A stretch of DNA of 8,251 bases from a virus, in the IMG/VR virus record IMGVR_UViG_3300029094_000065; one strand, 5' to 3'. A program made the position numbers and the translations under genes. This document shows positions 1 to 8,251 of this stretch, one piece after another (position 1 is the stretch's first letter; each line of letters opens with the position of its first letter). The notes below the pieces were generated by a model. The model worked only from the letters and a program-made list of their open reading frames with translations, ran no database searches and was not told where the DNA came from.

Positions 1-99
1 TGGCTTATTCATAAAAATTTCCCTCCTGATATCTTAATAACTGACTGCGCAACTTGTTAAATATGGGACCCTCAATCTCAAAGGGACGGTCCAGGAGCA
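1..99. repeat. Terminal direct repeat, identical to 8153-8251, marking circular closure of an 8,152-bp unit
   Basis: Positions 1-99 (tggcttattcataaaaatttccc...ggtccaggagca) recur exactly at 8153-8251. One ORF (the RHH gene starting at 8164) runs through the junction and continues at 12..1. Confidence 0.9.
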
Positions 100-925
100 G
101 GGCCTTATACTTTAACTTTGTAGGCCGGGAAAGCTGACGAAGGTAATAGTCCATCCGGTCTACCGGCTGTTCCGCAAGGAGCTGTACCATGACCTTTGAT
201 TCCGCCAGGTCTATCACTTTACGGGTATAGACATTGGGCCAGCAACGGTAACAATCTATGTAGTCCAGGCTATCCAGCGTAACCTCTATCCGGGTGAGGG
301 GATAATCAAGGCCAGCCTCTATCTGTTTGTTGTAGACCTTTACCCGGCCAGGAGAGGACATGCATCCTAAATATTCTGTAAAGTCCTGTGCTGATTTGTA
401 AAACTGGCTGTATTTCCTGTTATCCTTGATAAGCTGCACACAGTCACGGCCATAAGGTACATCCACTGCTAAATCCCATCTTTTTATCTTTATTGTTTCT
501 ACTATGGGGAACAACTCATTTAGGACCATCCTTAAGACTTCTCCTATCTGACTTTGCAGGTCTTTGAACCCTGTTTCCTCCTGGTCGAAGGGGGAGACAC
601 TTGTACGCATGAACCCATCATCATAAGCAATCTCACCAAGTATCTTGTTTGGGTTAAAGTCCAGGAAACCCTGTAAAACTGTTTCTTTCTTTACACCATT
701 CATACAAAGTCCAATGGAAAATGATAATCCTTTGATACCAAACACAAAAAGGTATCGGTAATCAAAATCCTTTAAAGAATGATAGTGCGTACAGCCTGGA
801 AGATGGGAGAGGAAGGAAAGGAAGGATTCAACTGTATCTACGTCCGGAAACTCAAAAGAGTACCGGAGGGAATCACAGGAATAAAATATGCCATCCTCAA
901 GGAGCGGATTGAAGTAGTAAAGCAT
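5..925 (-). CDS. Rolling-circle replication initiator (gpII/RstA-like HUH endonuclease), 306 aa
   Basis: ATG at 925 sits behind AGGAGG with an 8-nt spacer. It carries an HUH-like THYHSL motif and a candidate catalytic Tyr in VKVYNKQ. Its size and its place in an inovirus-like gene set fit gpII/RstA/Phage_CRI-type Reps. The stop at 5-7 is overlapped by the start of the next gene (ATGAATAA). Confidence 0.65.
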   Translation of the reverse strand: MLYYFNPLLEDGIFYSCDSLRYSFEFPDVDTVESFLSFLSHLPGCTHYHSLKDFDYRYLFVFGIKGLSFSIGLCMNGVKKETVLQGFLDFNPNKILGEIAYDDGFMRTSVSPFDQEETGFKDLQSQIGEVLRMVLNELFPIVETIKIKRWDLAVDVPYGRDCVQLIKDNRKYSQFYKSAQDFTEYLGCMSSPGRVKVYNKQIEAGLDYPLTRIEVTLDSLDYIDCYRCWPNVYTRKVIDLAESKVMVQLLAEQPVDRMDYYLRQLSRPTKLKYKALLLDRPFEIEGPIFNKLRSQLLRYQEGNFYE

Positions 926-1018: not shown

Positions 1019-1804
1019 TCACCGTTTCTTACGGTTCCATTTCCTCACGACCTCATGAAGCTGTACGCGTCCGCCGGCCATCGCGCGGCGGAGCGCTCCC
1101 AGCTTCCCCTGTTTCACCAGTTCCGGGAAGGGCATGTATTCAAACTCCTTCTCCGGGAGCAGGGGAGGATTGTAGGAATTGAAATACTTTACATACTTCG
1201 GGATGTAGGTAAAACGCACGGAACCGAAGGGGGCCAGGAGCAGGGAATCAATGTTGTAATCATCCACTATCTTTGATTCACCGCTGGCCGACTTATCCGC
1301 ATGGACAACGGCAACTGTCTTTGTGATACGCCTGGCAATGGAAAAGCAGTTCAGGAAGTTGTGGATGATGTACAGATGGTCAGTAAGGTCACGTATCTTC
1401 TTGTCAACATCAAAGGACTGGGAGAACAGATACACGATATGTTTATACTGCCGCTGATATTTGAAATAAACCTTTACGTGTTCCGGGAAGGACTTGAAAT
1501 TACGGTTATCCCATACAAGGCCCACCTCATCTATAAGCAGGATAGAATTTTCAGGAAAATGGGCAACACCAATATCAACGGTATCGAAGTGATAAGTTCC
1601 AGGTATATGCACGTTGCTATAGACGTGCCACCCCTTCTTACGGTATTTAAGTGCCATTTTACACATGAGCGTAGTCTTGCCACTACCTTTCTTGCCAAAG
1701 ACCATAAAGAGCTTATATGGATTGCGATACTTAAAGAAATGATAAGCAAAAAAGACAATCCAAAACATGCCAAAGCCAAAGAGTAGAACAGAAAACGCAT
1801 ACAT
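1019..1804 (-). CDS. Zot/pI-like morphogenesis P-loop ATPase with an N-terminal membrane anchor, 261 aa
   Basis: N-terminal TM helix (FSVLLFGFGMFWIVFFAYHFF). Walker A GKKGSGKTT and Walker B ILLIDEVG. The start ATG overlaps the stop of the upstream small ORF (TAATG). It sits where the assembly ATPase belongs in an inovirus gene set. Confidence 0.6.
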   Translation of the reverse strand: MYAFSVLLFGFGMFWIVFFAYHFFKYRNPYKLFMVFGKKGSGKTTLMCKMALKYRKKGWHVYSNVHIPGTYHFDTVDIGVAHFPENSILLIDEVGLVWDNRNFKSFPEHVKVYFKYQRQYKHIVYLFSQSFDVDKKIRDLTDHLYIIHNFLNCFSIARRITKTVAVVHADKSASGESKIVDDYNIDSLLLAPFGSVRFTYIPKYVKYFNSYNPPLLPEKEFEYMPFPELVKQGKLGALRRAMAGGRVQLHEVVRKWNRKKR

Positions 1805-1965
1805 TAAAACACCCCCTTAACAAGCTGTTTCGTGATACGGATAAGGCCAACGGGTAACAGGATTAAAAGCATGAACTGCCACATAATATTCGTATCAAGG
1901 GTAAAGGCATCCGGGGACATGGGGAACAGAATCACATCTATAAAAAGGTTGAATAAATCAATCAT
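1804..1965 (-). CDS. Small hydrophobic protein, 53 aa (MIDLFNLFIDVILF...FMLLILLPVGLIRITKQLVKGVF), translationally coupled to the ATPase
   Basis: GAGGTG ribosome-binding site 5 nt upstream of the ATG at 1965. One TM segment. Its stop TAA overlaps the ATG of the Zot-like gene. It falls below the 60-aa cutoff of the ORF track. Confidence 0.45.
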   Translation of the reverse strand: MIDLFNLFIDVILFPMSPDAFTLDTNIMWQFMLLILLPVGLIRITKQLVKGVF

Positions 1966-1983: not shown

Positions 1984-2005
1984 GAAGGGGACCGGGGTCC
2001 CCTTC
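1984..2005 (-). terminator. GC-rich palindrome gaaggggacc-gg-ggtccccttc immediately downstream of the coat gene
   Basis: A palindrome of 10-bp arms sits 4 nt after the coat-gene stop. This echoes the strong terminator that follows gVIII in Ff phages. No U-tract follows, so it may only attenuate transcription or stabilise the RNA. Confidence 0.3.
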
Positions 2006-2009
2006 TGAA

Positions 2010-2294
2010 TCATACCTGATGGTAAATGCGCATGAAGAACGCAACCACGGCGCCAGCGAAGAACAGACACATGGCAGCCAAAAGGATGGGCTGACTTAAA
2101 ATCCAGGTGAGCAGAAGCCCACACTCCTTCCAAAGCCAGGCCGTGACCACGGAAAACGTGGCTAACAGACTGTCAAGGCCCGTGGCCGGAGTACCGCCCT
2201 CAGCAAAAGCCGGGAAAGCCATAGCAACAGACGCAACACCAGTGGCGACAGGGATGGAACGATACTTCTTAACCGCATTCTTAATCTTCAACAT
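2010..2294 (-). CDS. Major coat protein precursor, pVIII-like, 94 aa with a cleavable signal peptide
   Basis: ATG at 2294 lies 7 nt after AAGGAGGTG. The ORF track extends it to a TTG at 2315, which is probably not used. Signal peptide MLKIKNAVKKYRSIPVATGVASVAMAFPAFA. The mature N-terminus EGGTPATGLDSLLAT... parallels M13 pVIII SFA|AEGDDPAKAAFDSLQAS. A hydrophobic core follows. The C-terminus (FFMRIYHQV) is short and only weakly basic. Confidence 0.65.
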   Translation of the reverse strand: MLKIKNAVKKYRSIPVATGVASVAMAFPAFAEGGTPATGLDSLLATFSVVTAWLWKECGLLLTWILSQPILLAAMCLFFAGAVVAFFMRIYHQV

Positions 2295-2316
2295 AAACAA
2301 ACACCTCCTTATCAAT

Positions 2317-2475
2317 TTATAAAAGTCGCCTAAATATATCTACAACCTTCTTAAGAAGGGGCAGACCAATCACAAACATCCCCACCCAGTAGGAATGCCT
2401 CCAAAGGATATCAAACAGAAGTGATAACTCATGAAACATCCATTCAACAACCTTCATAACAATACCAAGGTTCAT
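2317..2475 (-). CDS. Small hydrophobic protein, 52 aa, a pVII/pIX-like minor coat candidate
   Basis: MNLGIVMKVVEWMFHELSLLFDILWRHSYWVGMFVIGLPLLKKVVDIFRRLL. It starts 4 nt after the stop of the previous mini-ORF and lies immediately upstream of the coat gene. That is the position gVII and gIX occupy in Ff. The ribosome-binding site is weak (GGCGGTG). Confidence 0.4.
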   Translation of the reverse strand: MNLGIVMKVVEWMFHELSLLFDILWRHSYWVGMFVIGLPLLKKVVDIFRRLL

Positions 2476-2479
2476 ATAA

Positions 2480-2623
2480 TCACCGCCTATCTATCAGCGA
2501 CACAAAGATATGGAAGAACTTATCCACAATCCATAAAAAAGCAATGAAGCCAAAGGCATAACAAACCGGATAGAACTGGACAGGGACATCCCCCATCAAC
2601 GCGAGGATTTTCTCCATAAACAT
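2480..2623 (-). CDS. Small hydrophobic protein, 47 aa, a pVII/pIX-like minor coat candidate
   Basis: MFMEKILALMGDVPVQFYPVCYAFGFIAFLWIVDKFFHIFVSLIDRR. GGGAGG ribosome-binding site 9 nt upstream of the ATG at 2623. It overlaps the 3' end of the 324-aa gene by 28 nt. Confidence 0.4.
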   Translation of the reverse strand: MFMEKILALMGDVPVQFYPVCYAFGFIAFLWIVDKFFHIFVSLIDRR

Positions 2624-3570
2624 ATCAAACAACCTCCCATCAGAACAACAACGATATATGTAAGCGTGTCAGAAACCTTGAATATATGATGATATTGATT
2701 CACCTGAATATTGACGTATGTATCACGATAGCGCAAACTACCGGAACTCCAATAATACTCCCTGACATAATTGGGGGAGCCATACTCGCTGATAGTGTAA
2801 AAGTTATTGCCAAGGCAGGGAGTAAGATACACAAGCTTACCTGTCTGCGCATACGGATTAAAATTCCCATCCACCAGACGGCCTTGAATGGTATTAGCCG
2901 AAACATTGAACAGACGGCCCTGACTGTCTACATAAAGGGAATCCGCATACTCAGGGGGAAAGAGAAGGGTATACTCCTGGCCTGAGATAGAAACATCATA
3001 ACGAAGTACATTAACATAATCGTCAGAAGCAGAAACCGAACGCGCCGAACGGACAGGGGCATCCATAGGAATAATATCTGTAGGGCCTTCCTCCAGGTCA
3101 GAAACATCCTGCGCATCCTCCAGGGAAGAAAGCGCAGCATCCGAGGAGGAAGCAAGACCGGGACCGCCAAAAGAATCACGAATAGCAACAAGTTCGCATA
3201 AAATGTATCGGAGTAAATCATCACGTTTTAAATCCTCAAAATCATCAATATCCATCAAGGTTCTATCATCAATCAATAAATCCACATCCGTGTAGGCTGC
3301 ATCCGAAGGAGAAGCAACCCATATATCATCCATATCCATGTCCCAATCCGTATCTGCATCCACCCTGGACGCATTGGAAGGTGTAGCTGTATCTGCATAG
3401 GCCAGGAGAGGGCAGGAGAGCAGGAAAAAACTACTTAGAGCCACCACTACGTTTAGATGCCCTGGGCGGACGAACCACGGAAGATGGACTACCTCCCGCA
3501 CCACGGAAGGAAATGACAAGCGTAGTAACAAACACAGAAACAACAAGGACAGCGACCAGAAAATCACCAT
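2596..3570 (-). CDS. Secreted, membrane-anchored virion or host-interaction protein, 324 aa, with pIII-like topology and a strongly acidic D-rich central domain
   Basis: ATG at 3570 with a textbook ribosome-binding site (AGGAGG, then 8 nt, then ATG). Hydrophobic N-terminus, then a second hydrophobic stretch ending LLAYA|DT that looks like a signal-peptidase site. Asp-rich low-complexity region (DADTDWDMDMDD...IDDFEDLKRDD). C-terminal TM anchor LTYIVVVLMGGCLICLW followed by RKSSR. Its 5' 140 nt lie inside the 77-aa ORF in the +1 frame. Confidence 0.6.
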   Translation of the reverse strand: MVIFWSLSLLFLCLLLRLSFPSVVREVVHLPWFVRPGHLNVVVALSSFFLLSCPLLAYADTATPSNASRVDADTDWDMDMDDIWVASPSDAAYTDVDLLIDDRTLMDIDDFEDLKRDDLLRYILCELVAIRDSFGGPGLASSSDAALSSLEDAQDVSDLEEGPTDIIPMDAPVRSARSVSASDDYVNVLRYDVSISGQEYTLLFPPEYADSLYVDSQGRLFNVSANTIQGRLVDGNFNPYAQTGKLVYLTPCLGNNFYTISEYGSPNYVREYYWSSGSLRYRDTYVNIQVNQYHHIFKVSDTLTYIVVVLMGGCLICLWRKSSR

Positions 3571-3664
3571 ATGAATATCCTCCTAAATCACTGCCAAATA
3601 AAAGGACAGCAATCTGCGAAACAATAAAGATACAAAAATCAATTAAATCACGCATCATAATCAT
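3431..3664 (-). CDS. Small membrane protein, 77 aa, with a basic C-terminal tail (RPPRASKRSGGSK), possibly a DNA-contacting virion protein
   Basis: Its ATG overlaps the stop of the pVI-like gene (TGATG). The track starts it at GTG 3667. Two hydrophobic segments are followed by an Arg/Lys-rich C-terminus that recalls the DNA-binding tails of inovirus coat proteins. It overlaps the start of the 324-aa gene. Confidence 0.45.
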   Translation of the reverse strand: MIMMRDLIDFCIFIVSQIAVLLFGSDLGGYSYGDFLVAVLVVSVFVTTLVISFRGAGGSPSSVVRPPRASKRSGGSK

Positions 3665-3882
3665 CACGACCCCTTATTAAGAATCTGGAACACAACCGCA
3701 AGGCTGATAGGGACAACCACAAAACCAACCATCCAGGGCGGGAGATAGGAAAGGCACATCACCAGCCAGCCAACGGAACGGACAATGTTAACAATCACAA
3801 GGATAAGCGTTGCAATCATGTTGACAATGAAGCCAACCACAGTTTCAACAAACCCGGCAACCGCATCAAAAAATTGAAACAT
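3664..3882 (-). CDS. Polytopic small membrane protein, 72 aa, a pVI-like minor coat candidate
   Basis: Its ATG immediately follows the TAA of the pIII-like gene (TAAATG). It is almost entirely hydrophobic with 2-3 TM segments. It sits directly after the adsorption-protein gene, as gVI does after gIII in Ff. Confidence 0.55.
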   Translation of the reverse strand: MFQFFDAVAGFVETVVGFIVNMIATLILVIVNIVRSVGWLVMCLSYLPPWMVGFVVVPISLAVVFQILNKGS

Positions 3883-5079
3883 TTATGTCCCCCCTTTGAA
3901 CCGATAATAGCCAATGCAGAGCATGGCAATCGTGAGAGTAAGGGAAAAGCCAATAGGGATATTCAAGCCCTTCATGTTATTGTAAATATGATTCAGGAAA
4001 TAGGATATATCCGATAAAGGCCCCCTAATACGGGTAAAATAATCATCATAACGGAACGAATTAATGTTATTGCTTACATCCTCCATTAACTGTTTTTCAT
4101 TTTCCTGCATATTGTGAATCGAATCATTCAACTGAGCATTGCTGTTATCCAGACGGGATTTATCATAACCATTTGCAAGTTTATCCGTATTTGCATTATT
4201 ATTGTTAATGATATTCGTGGTATTGGATTCCTGGGAATCAATGATATCCTCTGTATTGCGCCGGTTTGCGGCCAAATCCTCAGAATGATGTTGATTCATT
4301 TTGTTATACATGTTCGTGAACTCACCCGCCAGTTGGTCCCAAAAGGAATGGAGCTGGTTACTGATAGTCTGAGTGGTATCCACAATCTGGTCAATGATGG
4401 TATCCTGTTTCTGCACCAAAGCCGCCGTATTGTTAGCCGTATCCTGGACCGAATTGGCAATTGCCTGATTTTGTTCCGATGCATCCGGAAGAGGGGCAAC
4501 CGGATTGTTAATGTTACCGGATTCATAATCCCGGAAGGAAATGACCGAGGAAAAATTAAGTTTCTGCGTACCATAAAGAGGAAACGCATAAGGGAAAAAG
4601 AACTCAACCGAGGTGAGGGACTGGCTATTCACGTTATATGTAACCGTATAGAAGTCAGGGGGGATGGTATCCGAAGCAATCTTCGGAAGCTGGCCGGATA
4701 AATCCGAAGCGTTAGGTCTTTTAACACGGCCACGGGCATACATCCTATCAAGTAATAATGAAGTGCTACTTGTCTGGATGGAAACCTGAGCCTTCCACTT
4801 GCCAGTTGTCGGAAAAGAGGAGCGGGGAAGAACCAAAACAAAACCTTGAATGCCCATACCGTCAGAAGGAGTAAATTCCTTACCAAAAGCACCTTGCCCG
4901 CCAGCCTCCTGAACCTTACCAAGGGATTTCTTATAGGTTCCAGAACCATAAGCAAAAACTTCAACCGTTGACCAGTTAATCGTATTGGTAGATGTAGGAA
5001 GGTCCCCGGCCAAAACAGTCAGGGGAAATAACGAAAGGATAAAAAGCGCCAACAGGGCACTTAAAAACTTCTTAACCAT
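3883..5079 (-). CDS. pIII-like adsorption or minor coat protein, 398 aa, with a signal peptide, an N/Q/T-rich polar central region and a C-terminal membrane anchor
   Basis: Signal peptide MVKKFLSALLALFILSLFPLTVLA|GD. Long Asn/Gln/Thr-rich low-complexity region (NNNNANTDKLANGYDKSRLDNSNAQLNDS...). C-terminal TM IPIGFSLTLTIAMLCIGYY followed by RFKGGT. Ribosome-binding site TAGGGGGTG upstream of the ATG at 5079. Confidence 0.7.
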   Translation of the reverse strand: MVKKFLSALLALFILSLFPLTVLAGDLPTSTNTINWSTVEVFAYGSGTYKKSLGKVQEAGGQGAFGKEFTPSDGMGIQGFVLVLPRSSFPTTGKWKAQVSIQTSSTSLLLDRMYARGRVKRPNASDLSGQLPKIASDTIPPDFYTVTYNVNSQSLTSVEFFFPYAFPLYGTQKLNFSSVISFRDYESGNINNPVAPLPDASEQNQAIANSVQDTANNTAALVQKQDTIIDQIVDTTQTISNQLHSFWDQLAGEFTNMYNKMNQHHSEDLAANRRNTEDIIDSQESNTTNIINNNNANTDKLANGYDKSRLDNSNAQLNDSIHNMQENEKQLMEDVSNNINSFRYDDYFTRIRGPLSDISYFLNHIYNNMKGLNIPIGFSLTLTIAMLCIGYYRFKGGT

Positions 5080-5450: not shown

Positions 5451-5773
5451 TCACAACATATCAAAACCGTAAAACCTGCGGGAGCAACATAAAACAGATA
5501 CCCAGCAAGACAACACCAACTAAAATCTTATCAAATTCATCAAAATGCATACTGACACCAACCTTTACCTGTAACACATTTCCAGCCTCAGTAAATCCCA
5601 GGCCCGGACGGAGCTGCTACCGCCACGTGTTACATTTCTTATGTCCGCGGCCCCGTAGGTGCATCCATGGCATGATGAATCGCTACCGCCAGGGACCTGG
5701 CACTTTCTGTAGTCAAGGGGAAGGGGTATCCCCGGCCCCTAGGCTACACCGGAGGCCGGGGACTTCGCTTCCG
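5451..5773. other. Structured GC-rich non-coding region of 323 nt, the best candidate for the packaging signal and/or replication origins
   Basis: No convincing ORF. Local GC content is far above the rest of the genome. Three hairpins were read by eye: tccccggcc (5729-5737) pairing with ggccgggga (5754-5762); ggggtatcccc at 5723-5733; and tgtaacac at 5570-5577 pairing with gtgttaca at 5627-5634. SacII (ccgcgg) and NcoI (ccatgg) palindromes are also present. Confidence 0.5.
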
Positions 5774-6034
5774 CTAGTTTGGAGAATCAACCAACCGGCA
5801 TTCCTCAACAAAACCACCACGGCCATAGGAGATATCCACAAAATCATCTGGATGAATACCAGAAATATCCGGGGCATATTCACCGTTCCAGATGTCAACC
5901 TGTTCGACACGGCGGCCACGGACTTTATCGGGCTGTCTGGATGGAACTGCATAGAAACGGGTGAAGTCATAAGGCTTACCAGTCTTTTTAGAGATACCCT
6001 CGAATCTCTCAATGCCTAAAATCTCATATACCAT
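5774..6034 (-). CDS. ssDNA-binding protein, M13 gV-like OB fold, 86 aa
   Basis: ATG at 6034 with GAGAGG plus an 8-nt spacer. The ORF track extends it to a TTG at 6040. MVYEILGIERFEGISKKTGKPYDF... aligns with M13 gVp MIKVEIKPSQAQFTTRSGVSRQGKPYSL.... The C-terminal ...CRLV resembles gVp ...RLRLV. The length matches gVp (87 aa). Confidence 0.7.
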   Translation of the reverse strand: MVYEILGIERFEGISKKTGKPYDFTRFYAVPSRQPDKVRGRRVEQVDIWNGEYAPDISGIHPDDFVDISYGRGGFVEECRLVDSPN

Positions 6035-7407: not shown

Positions 7408-7638
7408 ATGGACAGAGAAACGATTGAAGCAATGAGAACACTATTAGAACCAATTACAAACAAGCTAGAGGACATAAATCTACAAATATCAGAACTAAAA
7501 ATCCAAATGGATACACTAAGGCTAGACATGAAAACCTCAGAAAGGTCCATCAGGAAAGAAATACACCATATCAACGATGGAATGGACACCTTAGTAGAAG
7601 TATTGGAAGCCAAAGGAATCCTACCGAAGGTAGAATAA
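7408..7638 (+). CDS. Coiled-coil protein of unknown function, 76 aa
   Basis: CAAGGAGGA lies 8 nt before the ATG. Heptad-like sequence LEDINLQISELKIQMDTLRLDMKTSERSIRKEIHHINDGMDTLVEVLEAKG. The region is AT-rich. Confidence 0.55.
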   Translation: MDRETIEAMRTLLEPITNKLEDINLQISELKIQMDTLRLDMKTSERSIRKEIHHINDGMDTLVEVLEAKGILPKVE

Positions 7639-7643
7639 CAGCA

Positions 7644-7670
7644 ATATCCCCGGCTCTATGCCGGGGATAT
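7644..7670. terminator. Perfect 11-bp stem (atatccccggc / gccggggatat) with a 5-nt loop between the convergent transcription units
   Basis: Read directly from the sequence. A weak U-rich run (UGCUGUUAUUCU) follows on the minus-strand side and none follows on the plus side. It most likely terminates the long minus-strand operon after the 66-aa membrane gene. It could also pause plus-strand read-through. Confidence 0.45.
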
Positions 7671-7685
7671 GCGAAAGGAGTAAAC

Positions 7686-7984: not shown

Positions 7985-8164
7985 TTAATCCTCCTCAATC
8001 GCCCCACGCTTGATTGCCTCAGCCAGGCCGACCTGGACAAGCCTTGTTGCCATTTCAGCCGGGGTGGAGTAGCATTCACAGAACTCCATGTACCTGCAAA
8101 GGCGGTCATACTGTTTCGTGGTCAGATAAACATTGACTTTGATTTTTCCAACTGGCTTATTCAT
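7985..8164 (-). CDS. Ribbon-helix-helix protein, 59 aa, translationally coupled to the 3' end of the Rep gene across the circular junction
   Basis: MNKPVGKIKVNVYLTTKQYDRLCRYMEFCECYSTPAEMATRLVQVGLAEAIKRGAIEED. A beta strand (KIKVNVYLT) is followed by two helices. Its ATG at 8164 (copied at 12..10) lies behind AGGAGGG inside the Rep 3' end and overlaps the Rep stop (ATGAATAA). The ORF track misses it because it is under 60 aa. Confidence 0.6.
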   Translation of the reverse strand: MNKPVGKIKVNVYLTTKQYDRLCRYMEFCECYSTPAEMATRLVQVGLAEAIKRGAIEED

Positions 8165-8251
8165 AAAAATTTCCCTCCTGATATCTTAATAACTGACTGC
8201 GCAACTTGTTAAATATGGGACCCTCAATCTCAAAGGGACGGTCCAGGAGCA
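8153..8251. repeat. Second copy of the terminal direct repeat, identical to 1-99
   Basis: Exact 99-nt identity with the start of the window. It reflects circular-genome read-through or a concatemer junction. Confidence 0.9.

What the first reader, a model, noticed from the sequence alone, without database searches (positions are those of the whole stretch)
2010..2294. Coat protein mimics the mature N-terminus of Ff pVIII but lacks its lysine tail, while a neighbouring 77-aa protein carries one
After a typical signal peptide ending AFA, the mature protein begins EGGTPATGLDSLLAT.... This matches AEGDDPAKAAFDSLQAS of M13 pVIII in motif order (EG, P-A, DSL, A). Its C-terminus (FFMRIYHQV) has only two weakly basic residues, one Arg and one His, where pVIII has four lysines that neutralise DNA. 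The separate 77-aa membrane protein at 3431-3664 ends in RPPRASKRSGGSK. The hypothesis is that DNA charge neutralisation and the capsid shell are divided between two proteins, or that the mature coat is unusually long (63 aa) with a different DNA interface.
Basis: partly seen in the sequence, partly recalled or inferred. Interest (0 to 1): 0.55.

Follow-up and report, generated by a model that had tools for sequence, protein, structure and literature searches.

The report
Probable coat protein of gut filamentous phage
The 94-residue protein is most likely the main coat protein of a filamentous phage that infects Gram-positive gut bacteria (Lachnospiraceae). Its likeness to the M13 coat protein is no more than chance, and nothing suggests it needs the 77-residue neighbour to neutralise the DNA.

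Summary
The ORF, its AFA signal-peptide end, its lysine-free C-terminus and the basic tail of the 77/78-aa neighbour are all in the sequence as described. The window is a complete circular inovirus genome of about 8.15 kb. Its relatives are prophages of Lachnospiraceae.

The 94-aa protein (p94) is the best candidate for the major coat protein, but only on context:
- It has the strongest ribosome-binding site in the genome.
- A structurally conserved GC-rich hairpin follows the gene, in the order small gene, small gene, coat, hairpin, as in Ff gVII-gIX-gVIII-terminator.
- Homologues without a signal peptide begin at the predicted cleavage site.
- The mature N-terminus is hypervariable and the helical core is almost invariant.
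- The gene is tandemly duplicated in some relatives.

No known coat family matches it. The "pVIII-like" N-terminal motif is chance: it vanishes in 91%-identical homologues, and hhalign against the true pVIII family gives 3-9% probability. The tail follows a family pattern, F-x-R-[IVL]-x-[H/K/R], with two basic positions as in Pf1, Pf4 and Pf3. His fills the second position in this clade.

The neighbour's basic tail varies from 3 to about 25 residues among relatives. Every small membrane protein of the module ends basic, and another protein (p52) has the most pVIII-like tail. The division-of-labour idea is unsupported. Proteomics is still needed.

The parts
2010..2294 (-). p94 gene: 94-aa precursor of the probable major coat protein (stop codon 2010-2012)
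   Evidence: ORF list and sequence. 23 close homologues. 78 clusters among 1.84 billion representatives.
2302..2310 (-). Shine-Dalgarno AAGGAGGTG, 7 nt upstream of the p94 ATG
   Evidence: Strongest SD/anti-SD pairing of the 18 candidate start sites (14 genes) scored in the window, -15.6 kcal/mol. The coat gene has a good SD in all nine genomes compared.
2202..2294 (-). Signal peptide, residues 1-31, ending AFPAFA
   Evidence: Rule-based reading of the sequence. AFA is invariant. Homologues without a signal peptide begin at this point.
2013..2201 (-). Mature protein: 63 aa, 6.9 kDa. It has a variable acidic N-terminus, helix 1, a Q68-P69 kink, a 20-residue uncharged helix 2, and the tail R89-I-Y-H92-Q-V.
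   Evidence: AF2 helices at 40-67 and 69-93, pLDDT 70-85. Conservation by region. Hydropathy and charge. Mass.
1984..2005 (-). GC-rich hairpin GAAGGGGAC-CCCG-GTCCCCTTC just after the p94 stop codon. Probably a partial terminator or an mRNA-stabilising structure.
   Evidence: -16.4 kcal/mol, in the top 0.85% of 36-nt windows. A hairpin of different sequence occupies the same place in eight of ten related genomes.
2317..2475 (-). p52: small protein with no signal peptide, a 12-15-residue hydrophobic run and four K/R in the C-tail. Main rival coat candidate; more probably a pVII/pIX-like tip protein.
   Evidence: Its gene has no SD in four of nine genomes.
2480..2623 (-). p50 (47 aa from the ATG at 2623): small membrane protein whose gene starts inside the 3' end of the p324 gene.
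1804..1965 (-). p53: small membrane protein. Its stop codon overlaps the Zot start codon.
1019..1804 (-). Zot/pI-type assembly ATPase. This marks the element as an inovirus.
   Evidence: Pfam PF05707 E = 1.9e-8; phrog_197 Zot-like. 73 inovirus records match.
A membrane protein with a Gly/Ser/Pro-rich basic tail. Its gene overlaps the 5' end of the p324 gene.
2596..3570 (-). p324: large secreted protein with a C-terminal membrane anchor (pIII-like, second copy).
3664..3882 (-). p72: two-helix membrane protein, conserved in all relatives.
3883..5079 (-). p398: large secreted protein with a C-terminal membrane anchor (pIII-like, first copy).

Best explanation
p94 is the major capsid protein, the functional counterpart of pVIII/CoaB, of a temperate filamentous phage of Lachnospiraceae. 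These are Gram-positive hosts, so there is no secretin.

Inferred mechanism:
1. The precursor is made at high level from its own strong ribosome-binding site. The transcript largely ends, or is stabilised, at the hairpin just downstream.
2. The Sec pathway inserts the precursor and signal peptidase I cuts after A-F-A.
3. This leaves a 63-residue protein in the membrane with the N-terminus outside and the C-terminus inside.
4. The Zot/pI ATPase complex then transfers it onto the extruding ssDNA.
5. In the virion it forms a long helix kinked at Q68-P69. The variable acidic N-terminus lies on the surface. The C-terminal F-F-M-R-I-Y-H-Q-V faces the DNA.
6. DNA contact is through the near-invariant Arg (over 90% of family members) and the residue three positions later, which is His here and Lys or Arg in other members, probably together with the flanking aromatic residues. 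That is the two-basic-position type of Pf1, Pf4 and Pf3, not the four-lysine type of Ff.

p50 and p52, encoded just upstream and translationally coupled to the preceding gene, are probably low-copy tip proteins like pVII and pIX.

Shown here: the ORF, its signals, its conservation pattern, its genomic context and the host range. Inferred: its abundance in virions, the cleavage, the DNA contacts and the virion geometry.
For: Context.
- The genome is an inovirus: Zot, and an RstB-like ssDNA-binding protein and a replication initiator annotated in relatives.
- It is circular, with a 99-nt terminal repeat.
- The nine-gene morphogenesis block is conserved in bajarodino viruses 2 and 30 and recognisable in more distant gut inoviruses.
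- Hosts are Clostridium porci, Enterocloster, Hungatella and other Lachnospiraceae.

Expression signals.
- p94 has the strongest SD in the window. A good SD precedes the coat gene in 9/9 genomes, while p52 lacks one in four and uses GTG in two.
- The p50 and p52 genes overlap or abut the upstream gene.
- A stable hairpin follows the last short coat gene in 8/8 genomes that have only short copies. The sequences differ, and in L020 it is a canonical terminator with a T-run.
- The order p50-p52-p94-hairpin matches Ff gVII-gIX-gVIII-terminator (established knowledge of Ff).

Protein features.
- The signal peptide has an invariant AFA, and homologues without a signal peptide start at that site.
- AF2 predicts helix-kink-helix.
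- There is a 20-residue uncharged segment, comparable with pVIII (19), Pf1 (23) and Pf3 (18). The N-side has 3 acidic and 1 basic residue.
- Among close homologues, 10 of 11 N-terminal columns vary against 2 of 27 in helix 2 plus tail.
- The tail pattern is R-x-x-[H/K/R]: 1 K/R in 35 sequences (32 of them with His at +3), 2 in 31, and 3 in 8, out of 74.
- Reference inovirus coat proteins carry 2 or 3-4 basic residues (PMC12207478).

Paralogy. Tandem copies of this gene, and only of this gene, occur in L010, L011, L013 and L020.

Weak hint. Two of 55 family members touch phrog_1646, annotated 'major coat protein', at E = 0.0038.
Against: - No sequence or fold link to any characterised coat family:
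  - Pfam and PHROGs give nothing for the window protein.
  - A PDB profile search gives nothing at E <= 10.
  - Foldseek gives nothing.
  - hhalign against pVIII gives 3-9%.
- With one Arg and one His, the tail in this clade falls below the 2-4 K/R range reported for reference coat proteins.
- At least two other small proteins, p52 and p50, pass the usual size and transmembrane criteria for a coat. p52 has a more canonical four-basic tail.
- SD strength and hairpins are only indirect proxies for abundance.
- The hairpin is absent after the long paralogues in L010 and L011.
- No virion proteomics exists for this phage group; literature searches found none.
Confidence: 0.6

Rival explanations
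1. p52 (2317-2475), or less likely p50, is the true major coat protein. It would insert Pf3-style without a signal peptide and neutralise DNA with its four-basic amphipathic tail. p94 would then be a minor or tip virion protein, or an accessory surface protein anchored by a coat-like helix.
For: - The p52 tail (KKVVDIFRRLL; RRVVNIFRKLL; RKLVKLFKSL... in relatives) has 4 K/R in 11-15 residues, like KLFKKFTSKAS of pVIII, in the window and the three relatives scored (L001, L003, L010).
- Its size, 51-53 aa, is typical of coat proteins.
- Long paralogues of p94 carry a signal peptide, an ectodomain and a C-terminal anchor. That layout resembles adsorption proteins.
Against: - The uncharged run of p52 is only 12-15 residues, short for a membrane span.
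- Its N-side carries 2-3 K/R, which is unfavourable for translocation without a signal peptide.
- Its gene has no SD in L001, L002, L004 and L006, uses GTG in two genomes, and abuts the p50 gene. This suggests low, coupled expression.
- No hairpin follows it; the hairpin follows p94.
- Tandem duplication affects p94, not p52.
- p50 has an acidic residue at the start of its C-tail, just after the membrane span, in all nine genomes read.
Confidence: 0.2
2. One reading: the shell is built from p94 but DNA charge is neutralised by a second, stoichiometric small protein with a basic tail. That partner would be p78, or more plausibly p52, giving a two-component capsid.
For: - The p94 tail has a single K/R, below the 2-4 seen in reference coat proteins.
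- p78 and p52 are conserved across relatives and end in basic residues.
Against: - Across the family the second tail position switches between His, Lys and Arg. So the tail itself looks like the DNA-facing element, of the two-basic type that is sufficient in Pf1 and Pf4.
- The p78 tail varies from 3 to about 25 residues, is Gly/Ser/Pro-rich rather than helical, and has mixed charge in L011.
- p78 has a weak SD (-6 to -8 kcal/mol), and its gene overlaps the p324 gene.
- p52 often has no SD.
- Every membrane protein of the module ends basic, as the positive-inside rule predicts.
Confidence: 0.07
3. p94 is not a virion protein. It would be another kind of small exported membrane protein, such as a VirB2/TrbC-like pilin, a holin-like or superinfection-exclusion protein, or an assembly-site component.
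For: - Three of 55 family members weakly touch Pfam TrbC/VirB2 (best E = 0.0058) and two touch a holin PHROG (E = 0.012).
- The layout, a signal peptide followed by two hydrophobic helices, resembles T4SS pilins.
Against: - These hits are below threshold, and the window protein itself has none.
- The 8-kb genome has no T4SS genes and is a typical inovirus.
- The gene sits at a fixed position inside the structural block, next to Zot, in every relative, including 5-kb minimal genomes that have little room for accessory genes.
Confidence: 0.08

Closest known systems
Ff (M13/fd/f1) major coat protein pVIII, Pfam PF19199
   Same: - Sec-type signal peptide cleaved after A-x-A.
- Short, variable, acidic N-terminus followed by a long helix.
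- Aromatic Trp belt.
- Gene preceded by two small coupled genes and followed by a hairpin or terminator, upstream of the assembly ATPase gene.
   Different: - No detectable homology: hhalign 3-9%, and no PF19199 hit in any of 55 family members.
- The mature protein is 63 aa against 50. The alignment needs an 18-residue gap in pVIII.
- It has a near-invariant N/Q-P kink in mid-helix.
- The tail has one Arg and one His instead of four Lys.
- The host is Gram-positive and there is no secretin.
Class II major coat proteins: Pf1/Pf4 CoaB and Pf3 coat protein
   Same: - Two basic positions close to the C-terminus flanked by aromatic residues. Pf1 has ...YSMLRKA and Pf3 has ...IRWIKAQFF, with R and K three residues apart, as in R-I-Y-H here and R-V-W-K or R-I-F-K in relatives (Pf1 and Pf3 sequences are from my own knowledge).
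- The family includes forms with a signal peptide, like Pf1, and forms without, like Pf3.
   Different: - No sequence similarity was detected.
- p94 is about 17-19 residues longer.
- In the window's clade the second basic position is His.
- The nucleotide-per-subunit ratio and the symmetry are unknown.
Uncharacterised 'hypothetical proteins' of gut inoviruses (bajarodino viruses 2, 30, 29, 52; Dulem virus 73) and IMG/VR inovirus UViGs
   Same: - True homologues at the same genomic position: 59-61% identity in bajarodino viruses 2 and 30, and about 29% in virus 29.
- IMG/VR holds genomes 95-97% identical to the window over 69-86% of its length, and four IMG/VR loci carry an identical p94.
   Different: None of these records assigns a function. 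In PQ006166 the homologue is annotated on the wrong strand.
Coat protein of Propionibacterium phage B5 and related phages. Among the papers found here, these are the Gram-positive inoviruses with virion proteomics.
   Same: - Gram-positive host.
- Modular genome with pI but no secretin.
- In those phages pVIII and pIII are the most abundant virion proteins by LC-MS/MS (bioRxiv 10.64898/2026.07.11.737922).
   Different: - The host is an actinobacterium.
- The tblastn search of p94 against the phage collection (E up to 10) returned only bajarodino viruses and one unannotated gut phage; whether B5 is in that collection was not checked.
- I did not compare the sequences directly.

Membership tests
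Inovirus major coat protein (functional class) | Encoded in the structural/assembly module of a genome that has a pI/Zot ATPase | tested here: met
   Zot lies at 1019-1804 (Pfam E = 1.9e-8). p94 is the second gene upstream of it, and the same position is kept in all relatives.
Inovirus major coat protein (functional class) | Small, largely alpha-helical protein (30-90 aa after signal-peptide removal) with one membrane-spanning hydrophobic segment | tested here: met
   63 aa mature. AF2 helices at 40-67 and 69-93. 20-residue uncharged run, KD19 2.65. The size criterion is from Roux et al. 2019.
Inovirus major coat protein (functional class) | Acidic or neutral exposed N-terminus and a C-terminus with 2-4 Lys/Arg facing the DNA | tested here: inconclusive
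   The N-side has 3 D/E and 1 K. The tail has 1 Arg and 1 His. Across the family the tail has 1-3 K/R, with H, K or R at Arg+3. The reference range is 2-4.
Inovirus major coat protein (functional class) | By far the most abundant virion protein (thousands of copies) | not testable with these tools
   Only proxies are available: the strongest SD, an independent SD in 9/9 genomes and a downstream hairpin.
Inovirus major coat protein (functional class) | Membrane insertion through a cleavable signal peptide or by YidC-type insertion without one | tested here: met
   Rule-based signal peptide with invariant AFA. Homologues without a signal peptide have acidic N-tails and start at the cleavage site. 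Cleavage itself was not tested.
Ff pVIII family (Pfam PF19199, Phage_coatGP8) | Sequence match to the family model | tested here: not met
   No Pfam hit for p94 or for any of 55 relatives, whereas all 28 true pVIII relatives carry PF19199. hhalign probability is 8.8% and 2.8%.
Ff pVIII family (Pfam PF19199, Phage_coatGP8) | Conserved N-terminal A-E-G-D...A-K-A-A-F-D-S-L motif and the four-lysine C-terminal K-L-F-K-K-F-x-x-(K/R)-A-S | tested here: not met
   EG, PA and D41 vary among homologues that are at least 85% identical. Similarity drops to chance level in 91%-identical homologues. The tail has no Lys.
Pf1/Pf4 CoaB (class II coat) | Sequence match to the family | tested here: not met
   No Pfam hit. 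The Smith-Waterman score against mature Pf1 and Pf3 is at shuffle level.
TrbC/VirB2 conjugative pilin (Pfam PF04956) | Match to the family model and a neighbourhood of T4SS genes | tested here: not met
   The window protein has no hit. Three of 55 relatives hit at E >= 0.0058, below threshold. No T4SS genes are present in the 8-kb genome.

The most novel reading that the evidence does not exclude
The capsid of this phage group is not a homopolymer of one coat protein. In the window's clade, a 63-residue shell protein with only one Arg and one His would need a second basic-tailed small protein, p52 or p78, at high copy number to neutralise a circular ssDNA. In related genomes, several p94-type paralogues would co-assemble into one filament. 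These include forms of 206-281 aa, as called by the gene finder, that carry an N-terminal all-beta ectodomain. That would amount to a natural counterpart of type-88 phage display.
Probability: 0.12. Interest if true: 0.7.

Novelty: new member of a known kind. Interest (0 to 1): 0.33.

Why it matters
Filamentous phages of Gram-positive bacteria are barely characterised. Among the papers found here, only those of Propionibacterium have virion proteomics. The gut is full of small inoviruses whose structural genes are all labelled hypothetical. Identifying the coat gene of the Lachnospiraceae group gives three things:
- an annotation handle, because 78 sequence clusters can now be annotated;
- a concrete target for proteomics and cryo-EM;
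- a test of the recently proposed rule that the number of basic residues in the coat tail predicts how the DNA is arranged. This family has 1-3, with His standing in for Lys or Arg.

The specific claims that made the finding look striking, pVIII mimicry and a split DNA-neutralising function, do not hold up. The finding as written is therefore fairly ordinary.

Tried and rejected
- Megablast of the whole window against 50,697 phage records: no match.
- Pfam and PHROGs on ten window proteins: only Zot was recognised.
- Profile of the p94 family against all PDB sequences at E <= 10: nothing.
- Foldseek of the AF2 model against the PDB: nothing. A kinked helix carries little fold information.
- Literature searches for 'bajarodino', for inoviruses of Lachnospiraceae and for phage CAK1 found no experimental data on this group.
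- A look-up of IMG genome ids in the supplements of Roux et al. 2019 found nothing.
- The search for related loci failed with the broad alignment A3. With the long-paralogue alignment it found nothing in IMG/VR.
- BLASTP of p94 against the Pf1 coat precursor: no alignment, so I dropped the idea that the similar ...PAFA signal-peptide ends indicate homology.
- I tried to find which family members give the weak 'major coat protein' PHROG hit. The ten I guessed were not among them, and I did not pursue it.
- A homologue search with p52 returned no named or Pfam-annotated relatives.
- I considered and rejected the TTG start at 2315. It lies inside the SD, and homologues start at the ATG.
- I considered a VirB2-like pilin, a holin and a non-structural role. 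These are rejected on context (see the rival explanations).
- The AF2 model of a long paralogue was too low in confidence in the ectodomain (pLDDT 50-65) to justify a fold search.
Full report
WHAT THE WINDOW IS

The 8,251-base window begins and ends with the same 99 bases, so it is a circularly closed genome of 8,152 nt. Nearly all genes are on the minus strand. One of them, at 1019-1804, is a Zot/pI-type assembly ATPase (Pfam PF05707, E = 1.9e-8; PHROG 'Zot-like'). This is the hallmark gene of filamentous phages.

Megablast finds no close phage record. Protein-level searches find relatives among uncultivated gut inoviruses: bajarodino viruses from rodent faeces, Dulem viruses from lemurs and porcine 'Inovirus sp.'. 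IMG/VR holds genomes 95-97% identical to the window over 69-86% of its length, several of them cut out of isolate genomes. Homologues of the protein in question lie in prophages of Clostridium porci, Enterocloster hominis, Hungatella and other Lachnospiraceae. One lies next to typical Gram-positive host genes such as LytR-CpsA-Psr. The host is therefore a Gram-positive clostridial gut bacterium, and there is no secretin gene.

THE MODULE

Read along the minus strand, the morphogenesis block is as follows.
- p398: signal peptide and C-terminal anchor.
- p72: two hydrophobic helices.
- p324: signal peptide and C-terminal anchor.
- p50, p52, p94 (the finding) and p53.
- Zot.

All nine genes are conserved in bajarodino viruses 2 and 30 at 31-63% identity. 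They are recognisable by position and architecture in bajarodino viruses 29 and 52 and in the 5.2-kb Dulem virus 73. The public records miss the p78 homologue in two genomes. In PQ006166 the p94 homologue is annotated on the wrong strand.

CHECKING THE OBSERVATION

The ORF, its coordinates and both termini are as described. The ATG at 2294 is the correct start. It lies 7 nt after AAGGAGGTG, and the alternative TTG at 2315 lies within that Shine-Dalgarno sequence.

The signal peptide has five K/R in its n-region, a 15-residue hydrophobic core, Pro at -4 and A-F-A at -3 to -1. AFA is invariant in 14 homologues. The strongest support for the cleavage site is comparative. Many family members have no signal peptide at all, and they start within a few residues of the predicted mature N-terminus. 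Examples are MEPSAPTAMETLL... and MEGAAGITALL.... A relative 65% identical in the coat domain also lacks the signal peptide.

The neighbour does end in RPPRASKRSGGSK. Its homologues start at the equivalent of its fifth residue, so 74 aa is the likelier length.

THE CLAIMED pVIII MIMICRY

Against mature M13 pVIII, BLASTP aligns 25 residues with 9 identities for 17.7 bits. A Smith-Waterman score of 33 compares with 22.6 +/- 4.5 for shuffles and is reached by 2.9% of them. That margin is small for a comparison chosen after seeing the match.

It also does not survive comparison with relatives. In three 91%-identical homologues (P0004, P0005, P0009) the score is 21, at or below the shuffle mean. 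E32, the T-P-A stretch and D41 all vary among homologues that are at least 85% identical.

I then built a genuine pVIII alignment. Profile-profile comparison with the p94 family gives 8.8% probability for the close set and 2.8% for the broad set. No member of the p94 family hits PF19199 or any other coat Pfam model.

The resemblance is therefore the generic look of an exposed N-terminus rich in small and acidic residues that leads into an amphipathic helix. It is neither homology nor specific mimicry. One descriptive point from the broad alignment is useful: placing p94 on pVIII requires an 18-residue gap in pVIII. p94 thus behaves like a coat helix with about five extra turns.

IS p94 THE MAJOR COAT PROTEIN?

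Homology cannot answer this. Pfam, PHROGs, PDB sequence search and Foldseek give nothing. The only hint is that two of 55 family members touch a PHROG annotated 'major coat protein' at E = 0.0038. The case rests on six convergent lines of context.

(1) Translation signals. p94 has the strongest SD/anti-SD pairing of the start sites scored in the window (-15.6 kcal/mol). The homologous gene has a well-spaced GGAGG-type site in all nine genomes examined. The p52 gene has no recognisable site in four genomes and a GTG start in two. The p50 and p52 genes overlap or abut the gene before them, which suggests coupled, low-level translation.

(2) A hairpin downstream.
- A GC-rich hairpin (1984-2005, -16.4 kcal/mol) starts 4 nt after the stop codon. 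It ranks in the top 0.85% of all 36-nt windows.
- In eight of ten related genomes a stable hairpin of unrelated sequence occupies the same position. Some have a T-run, and L020 has a textbook intrinsic terminator.
- The two exceptions are the genomes in which the coat cluster ends with a long paralogue.
- The other strong intergenic hairpins in the window follow the ssDNA-binding gene and Zot.

(3) Gene order. The order small gene, small gene, coat, hairpin, then assembly genes reproduces gVII-gIX-gVIII-terminator of Ff (established knowledge).

(4) Architecture.
- AF2 predicts two helices, 40-67 and 69-93, joined at the near-invariant Q/N-P, with pLDDT 70-85.
- The uncharged segment is 20 residues, against 19 in pVIII, 23 in Pf1 and 18 in Pf3.
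- The N-side has 3 acidic and 1 basic residue.
- Family members without a signal peptide have N-tails that are acidic and almost free of K/R, as Pf3-type insertion requires.

(5) Evolutionary pattern. Among close homologues, 10 of 11 columns of the mature N-terminus vary, against 5 of 25 in helix 1 and 2 of 27 in helix 2 plus tail. This fits an exposed N-terminus on a tightly packed core.

(6) Paralogy. Only this gene is tandemly duplicated in relatives: two copies in L020, three in L010 and two in L011 and L013.

THE TAIL

In 74 family sequences the last ten residues hold one K/R in 35 cases, two in 31 and three in 8. None has four. The Arg is nearly invariant. The residue three positions later is His in 32 of the 35 single-K/R sequences and Lys or Arg in most others. 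The functional unit is therefore F-x-R-[IVL]-x-[H/K/R], two basic positions on one face of the helix flanked by aromatic residues.

A 2025 survey of 28 sequenced inoviruses found coat tails with either 3-4 or 2 basic residues. The two-residue type is represented by Pf4, and Pf3 is the odd case (PMC12207478). The p94 family belongs with the two-residue type. The window's clade sits at its lower edge, with His in place of Lys or Arg.

THE 77/78-aa PROTEIN AND THE DIVISION-OF-LABOUR IDEA

p78 is a real, conserved gene. In the region where it overlaps the p324 reading frame, the p78 frame is the one that is conserved. Its tail is basic in the closest relatives: RPPKHK, RPPRRR and RPPRSIRHKAGSSKTSGAK. 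It shrinks to RRFR or ARRRW in bajarodino viruses 29 and 52, and it has mixed charge in L011.

Several points count against a stoichiometric role in DNA binding.
- The tail is Gly/Ser/Pro-rich, not helical.
- The gene has a weak ribosome-binding site.
- It lies between the two pIII-like genes.
- Every membrane protein in the block ends in basic residues, as the positive-inside rule predicts.

The protein with the most pVIII-like tail is p52, with four K/R in 11-15 residues in the window and the three relatives scored (L001, L003, L010). Its hydrophobic run is only 12-15 residues, its N-side carries K/R, and its expression signals are poor. I read it as a pVII/pIX-like tip protein that may contact the packaging signal. 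I cannot exclude that p52 is the real coat (about 0.2), or that the capsid has two components (about 0.07).

MECHANISM

I give the following model about 0.6 confidence. Steps 1-4 are inferred by analogy with Ff and Pf phages. None was tested here.
1. High-level translation from an independent SD.
2. Sec export and cleavage after AFA.
3. A membrane pool of the 6.9-kDa mature protein, N-terminus out and C-terminus in.
4. Zot-driven transfer onto the extruding ssDNA.

In the virion the protein would form a kinked helix of about 53 residues, with the N-terminus outside. R89 and H92, with F86, F87 and Y91, would face the DNA. The two-basic tail predicts a Pf1/Pf4-like ratio of about 1 nt per subunit and a particle about 2.5 um long. 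Ff-like packing would give about 1.1 um.

NOVELTY

This lineage is already in IMG/VR and GenBank, but only as hypothetical proteins. The family (78 clusters among 1.84 billion representatives) has no Pfam or annotated PHROG model. It is a new sequence family of a known kind of protein. It is somewhat longer than usual and has a minimal basic tail.

The more interesting material lies outside the window. In some relatives, paralogues called as 206-281 aa carry a signal peptide, an acidic linker and a hypervariable all-beta ectodomain, fused to a coat domain almost identical to the short coat gene beside them. One ectodomain gives a sub-threshold IPT/TIG match. This arrangement might be a natural form of coat-protein display or a coat-derived adsorption protein.

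VERDICT

The sequence facts are confirmed. The coat assignment is plausible but unproven. The pVIII mimicry is not real. The partner-protein hypothesis is unsupported. Interest is modest.

Noticed in passing
L010 1009-1674; L011 1651-2421; L013 335-1027; also P0048, P0051, P0068, P0073, P0076, P0077, P0084, P0095, P0097, P0099: Long paralogues of the coat-like protein, 206-281 aa as called by the gene finder (some called N-termini are out-of-frame read-through of the upstream gene). Each has a signal peptide (..FPAFA|ED), an acidic disordered linker, a hypervariable all-beta ectodomain of about 75-170 aa, and a C-terminal coat domain that is highly conserved. In the three loci with upstream sequence (L010, L011, L013) a short coat gene without a signal peptide lies immediately upstream. 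P0051 gives a sub-threshold IPT/TIG (Ig-like) hit. This could be natural coat-protein display or a coat-derived adsorption protein.
   Followed up: partly
L020 6001-6168 and 6181-6369; L010 617-799 and 812-997: Tandem copies of the short coat-like gene without a signal peptide occur in a human-gut Clostridiaceae MAG and in a metagenomic contig. So the presence or absence of a signal peptide switches between relatives 65% identical in the coat domain, and some virions may contain two coat species. In the second L020 copy the otherwise near-invariant Pro is replaced (GQD).
   Followed up: partly
window 1-99 and 8153-8251: An exact 99-nt terminal direct repeat. The window is a circularly closed assembly with a unit length of 8,152 nt.
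   Followed up: yes
window 2317-2475 (minus strand): p52 has a tail strikingly like that of pVIII: four K/R in 11-15 residues (KKVVDIFRRLL; RKLVKLFKSL in relatives). This holds in the window and the three relatives scored (L001, L003, L010), and visibly in L006 and L011 but not in Dulem virus 73 (L004). Its hydrophobic run is only 12-15 residues, and its gene often has no SD. It may be a tip protein that contacts DNA.
   Followed up: partly
window 5728-5763, 982-1017 and 7640-7675 (minus-strand RNA): Very stable intergenic hairpins. One, of -26.8 kcal/mol, lies just after the ssDNA-binding-protein gene (stop at 5774) and could be a terminator, a packaging signal or part of an origin. Another, of -19, lies just after Zot. 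A third, of -23.8, sits just downstream of the plus-strand ORF at 7408-7638.
   Followed up: no
window 3431-3570; L001 6107-6310; L002 5110-5313; L003 8082-8321: The p78 gene overlaps the 5' end of the p324 gene in another frame, and the p78 frame is the conserved one. The p78 homologues are not annotated in PQ006165 and PQ006138. In PQ006166 the coat homologue is annotated on the opposite strand (8075-8332, minus).
   Followed up: yes
window 3883-5079 and 2596-3570 (minus strand): There are two large secreted proteins with C-terminal anchors (p398 and p324), where Ff has a single pIII. The second shrinks to 75 aa in Dulem virus 73. p398 has an Asn/Gln-rich helical region with a sub-threshold SseC-like hit.
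   Followed up: no
P0010, P0012, P0013, P0015, P0016, P0017 (metagenomic homologues): Several near-identical metagenomic variants of p94 carry in-frame deletions of 6-8 residues, mostly within the helices and in two cases at the signal-peptide end. Each is a cluster of one or two sequences on a single contig. They could be assembly artefacts or defective copies.
   Followed up: no
window 5-925 (minus strand): The 306-aa protein sits at the position of the replication initiator annotated next to Zot in bajarodino virus 29. It has no Pfam or PHROG hit and no significant similarity to the initiators of bajarodino viruses 2, 30 and 29. The replication module appears to be exchanged between otherwise related phages.
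   Followed up: no
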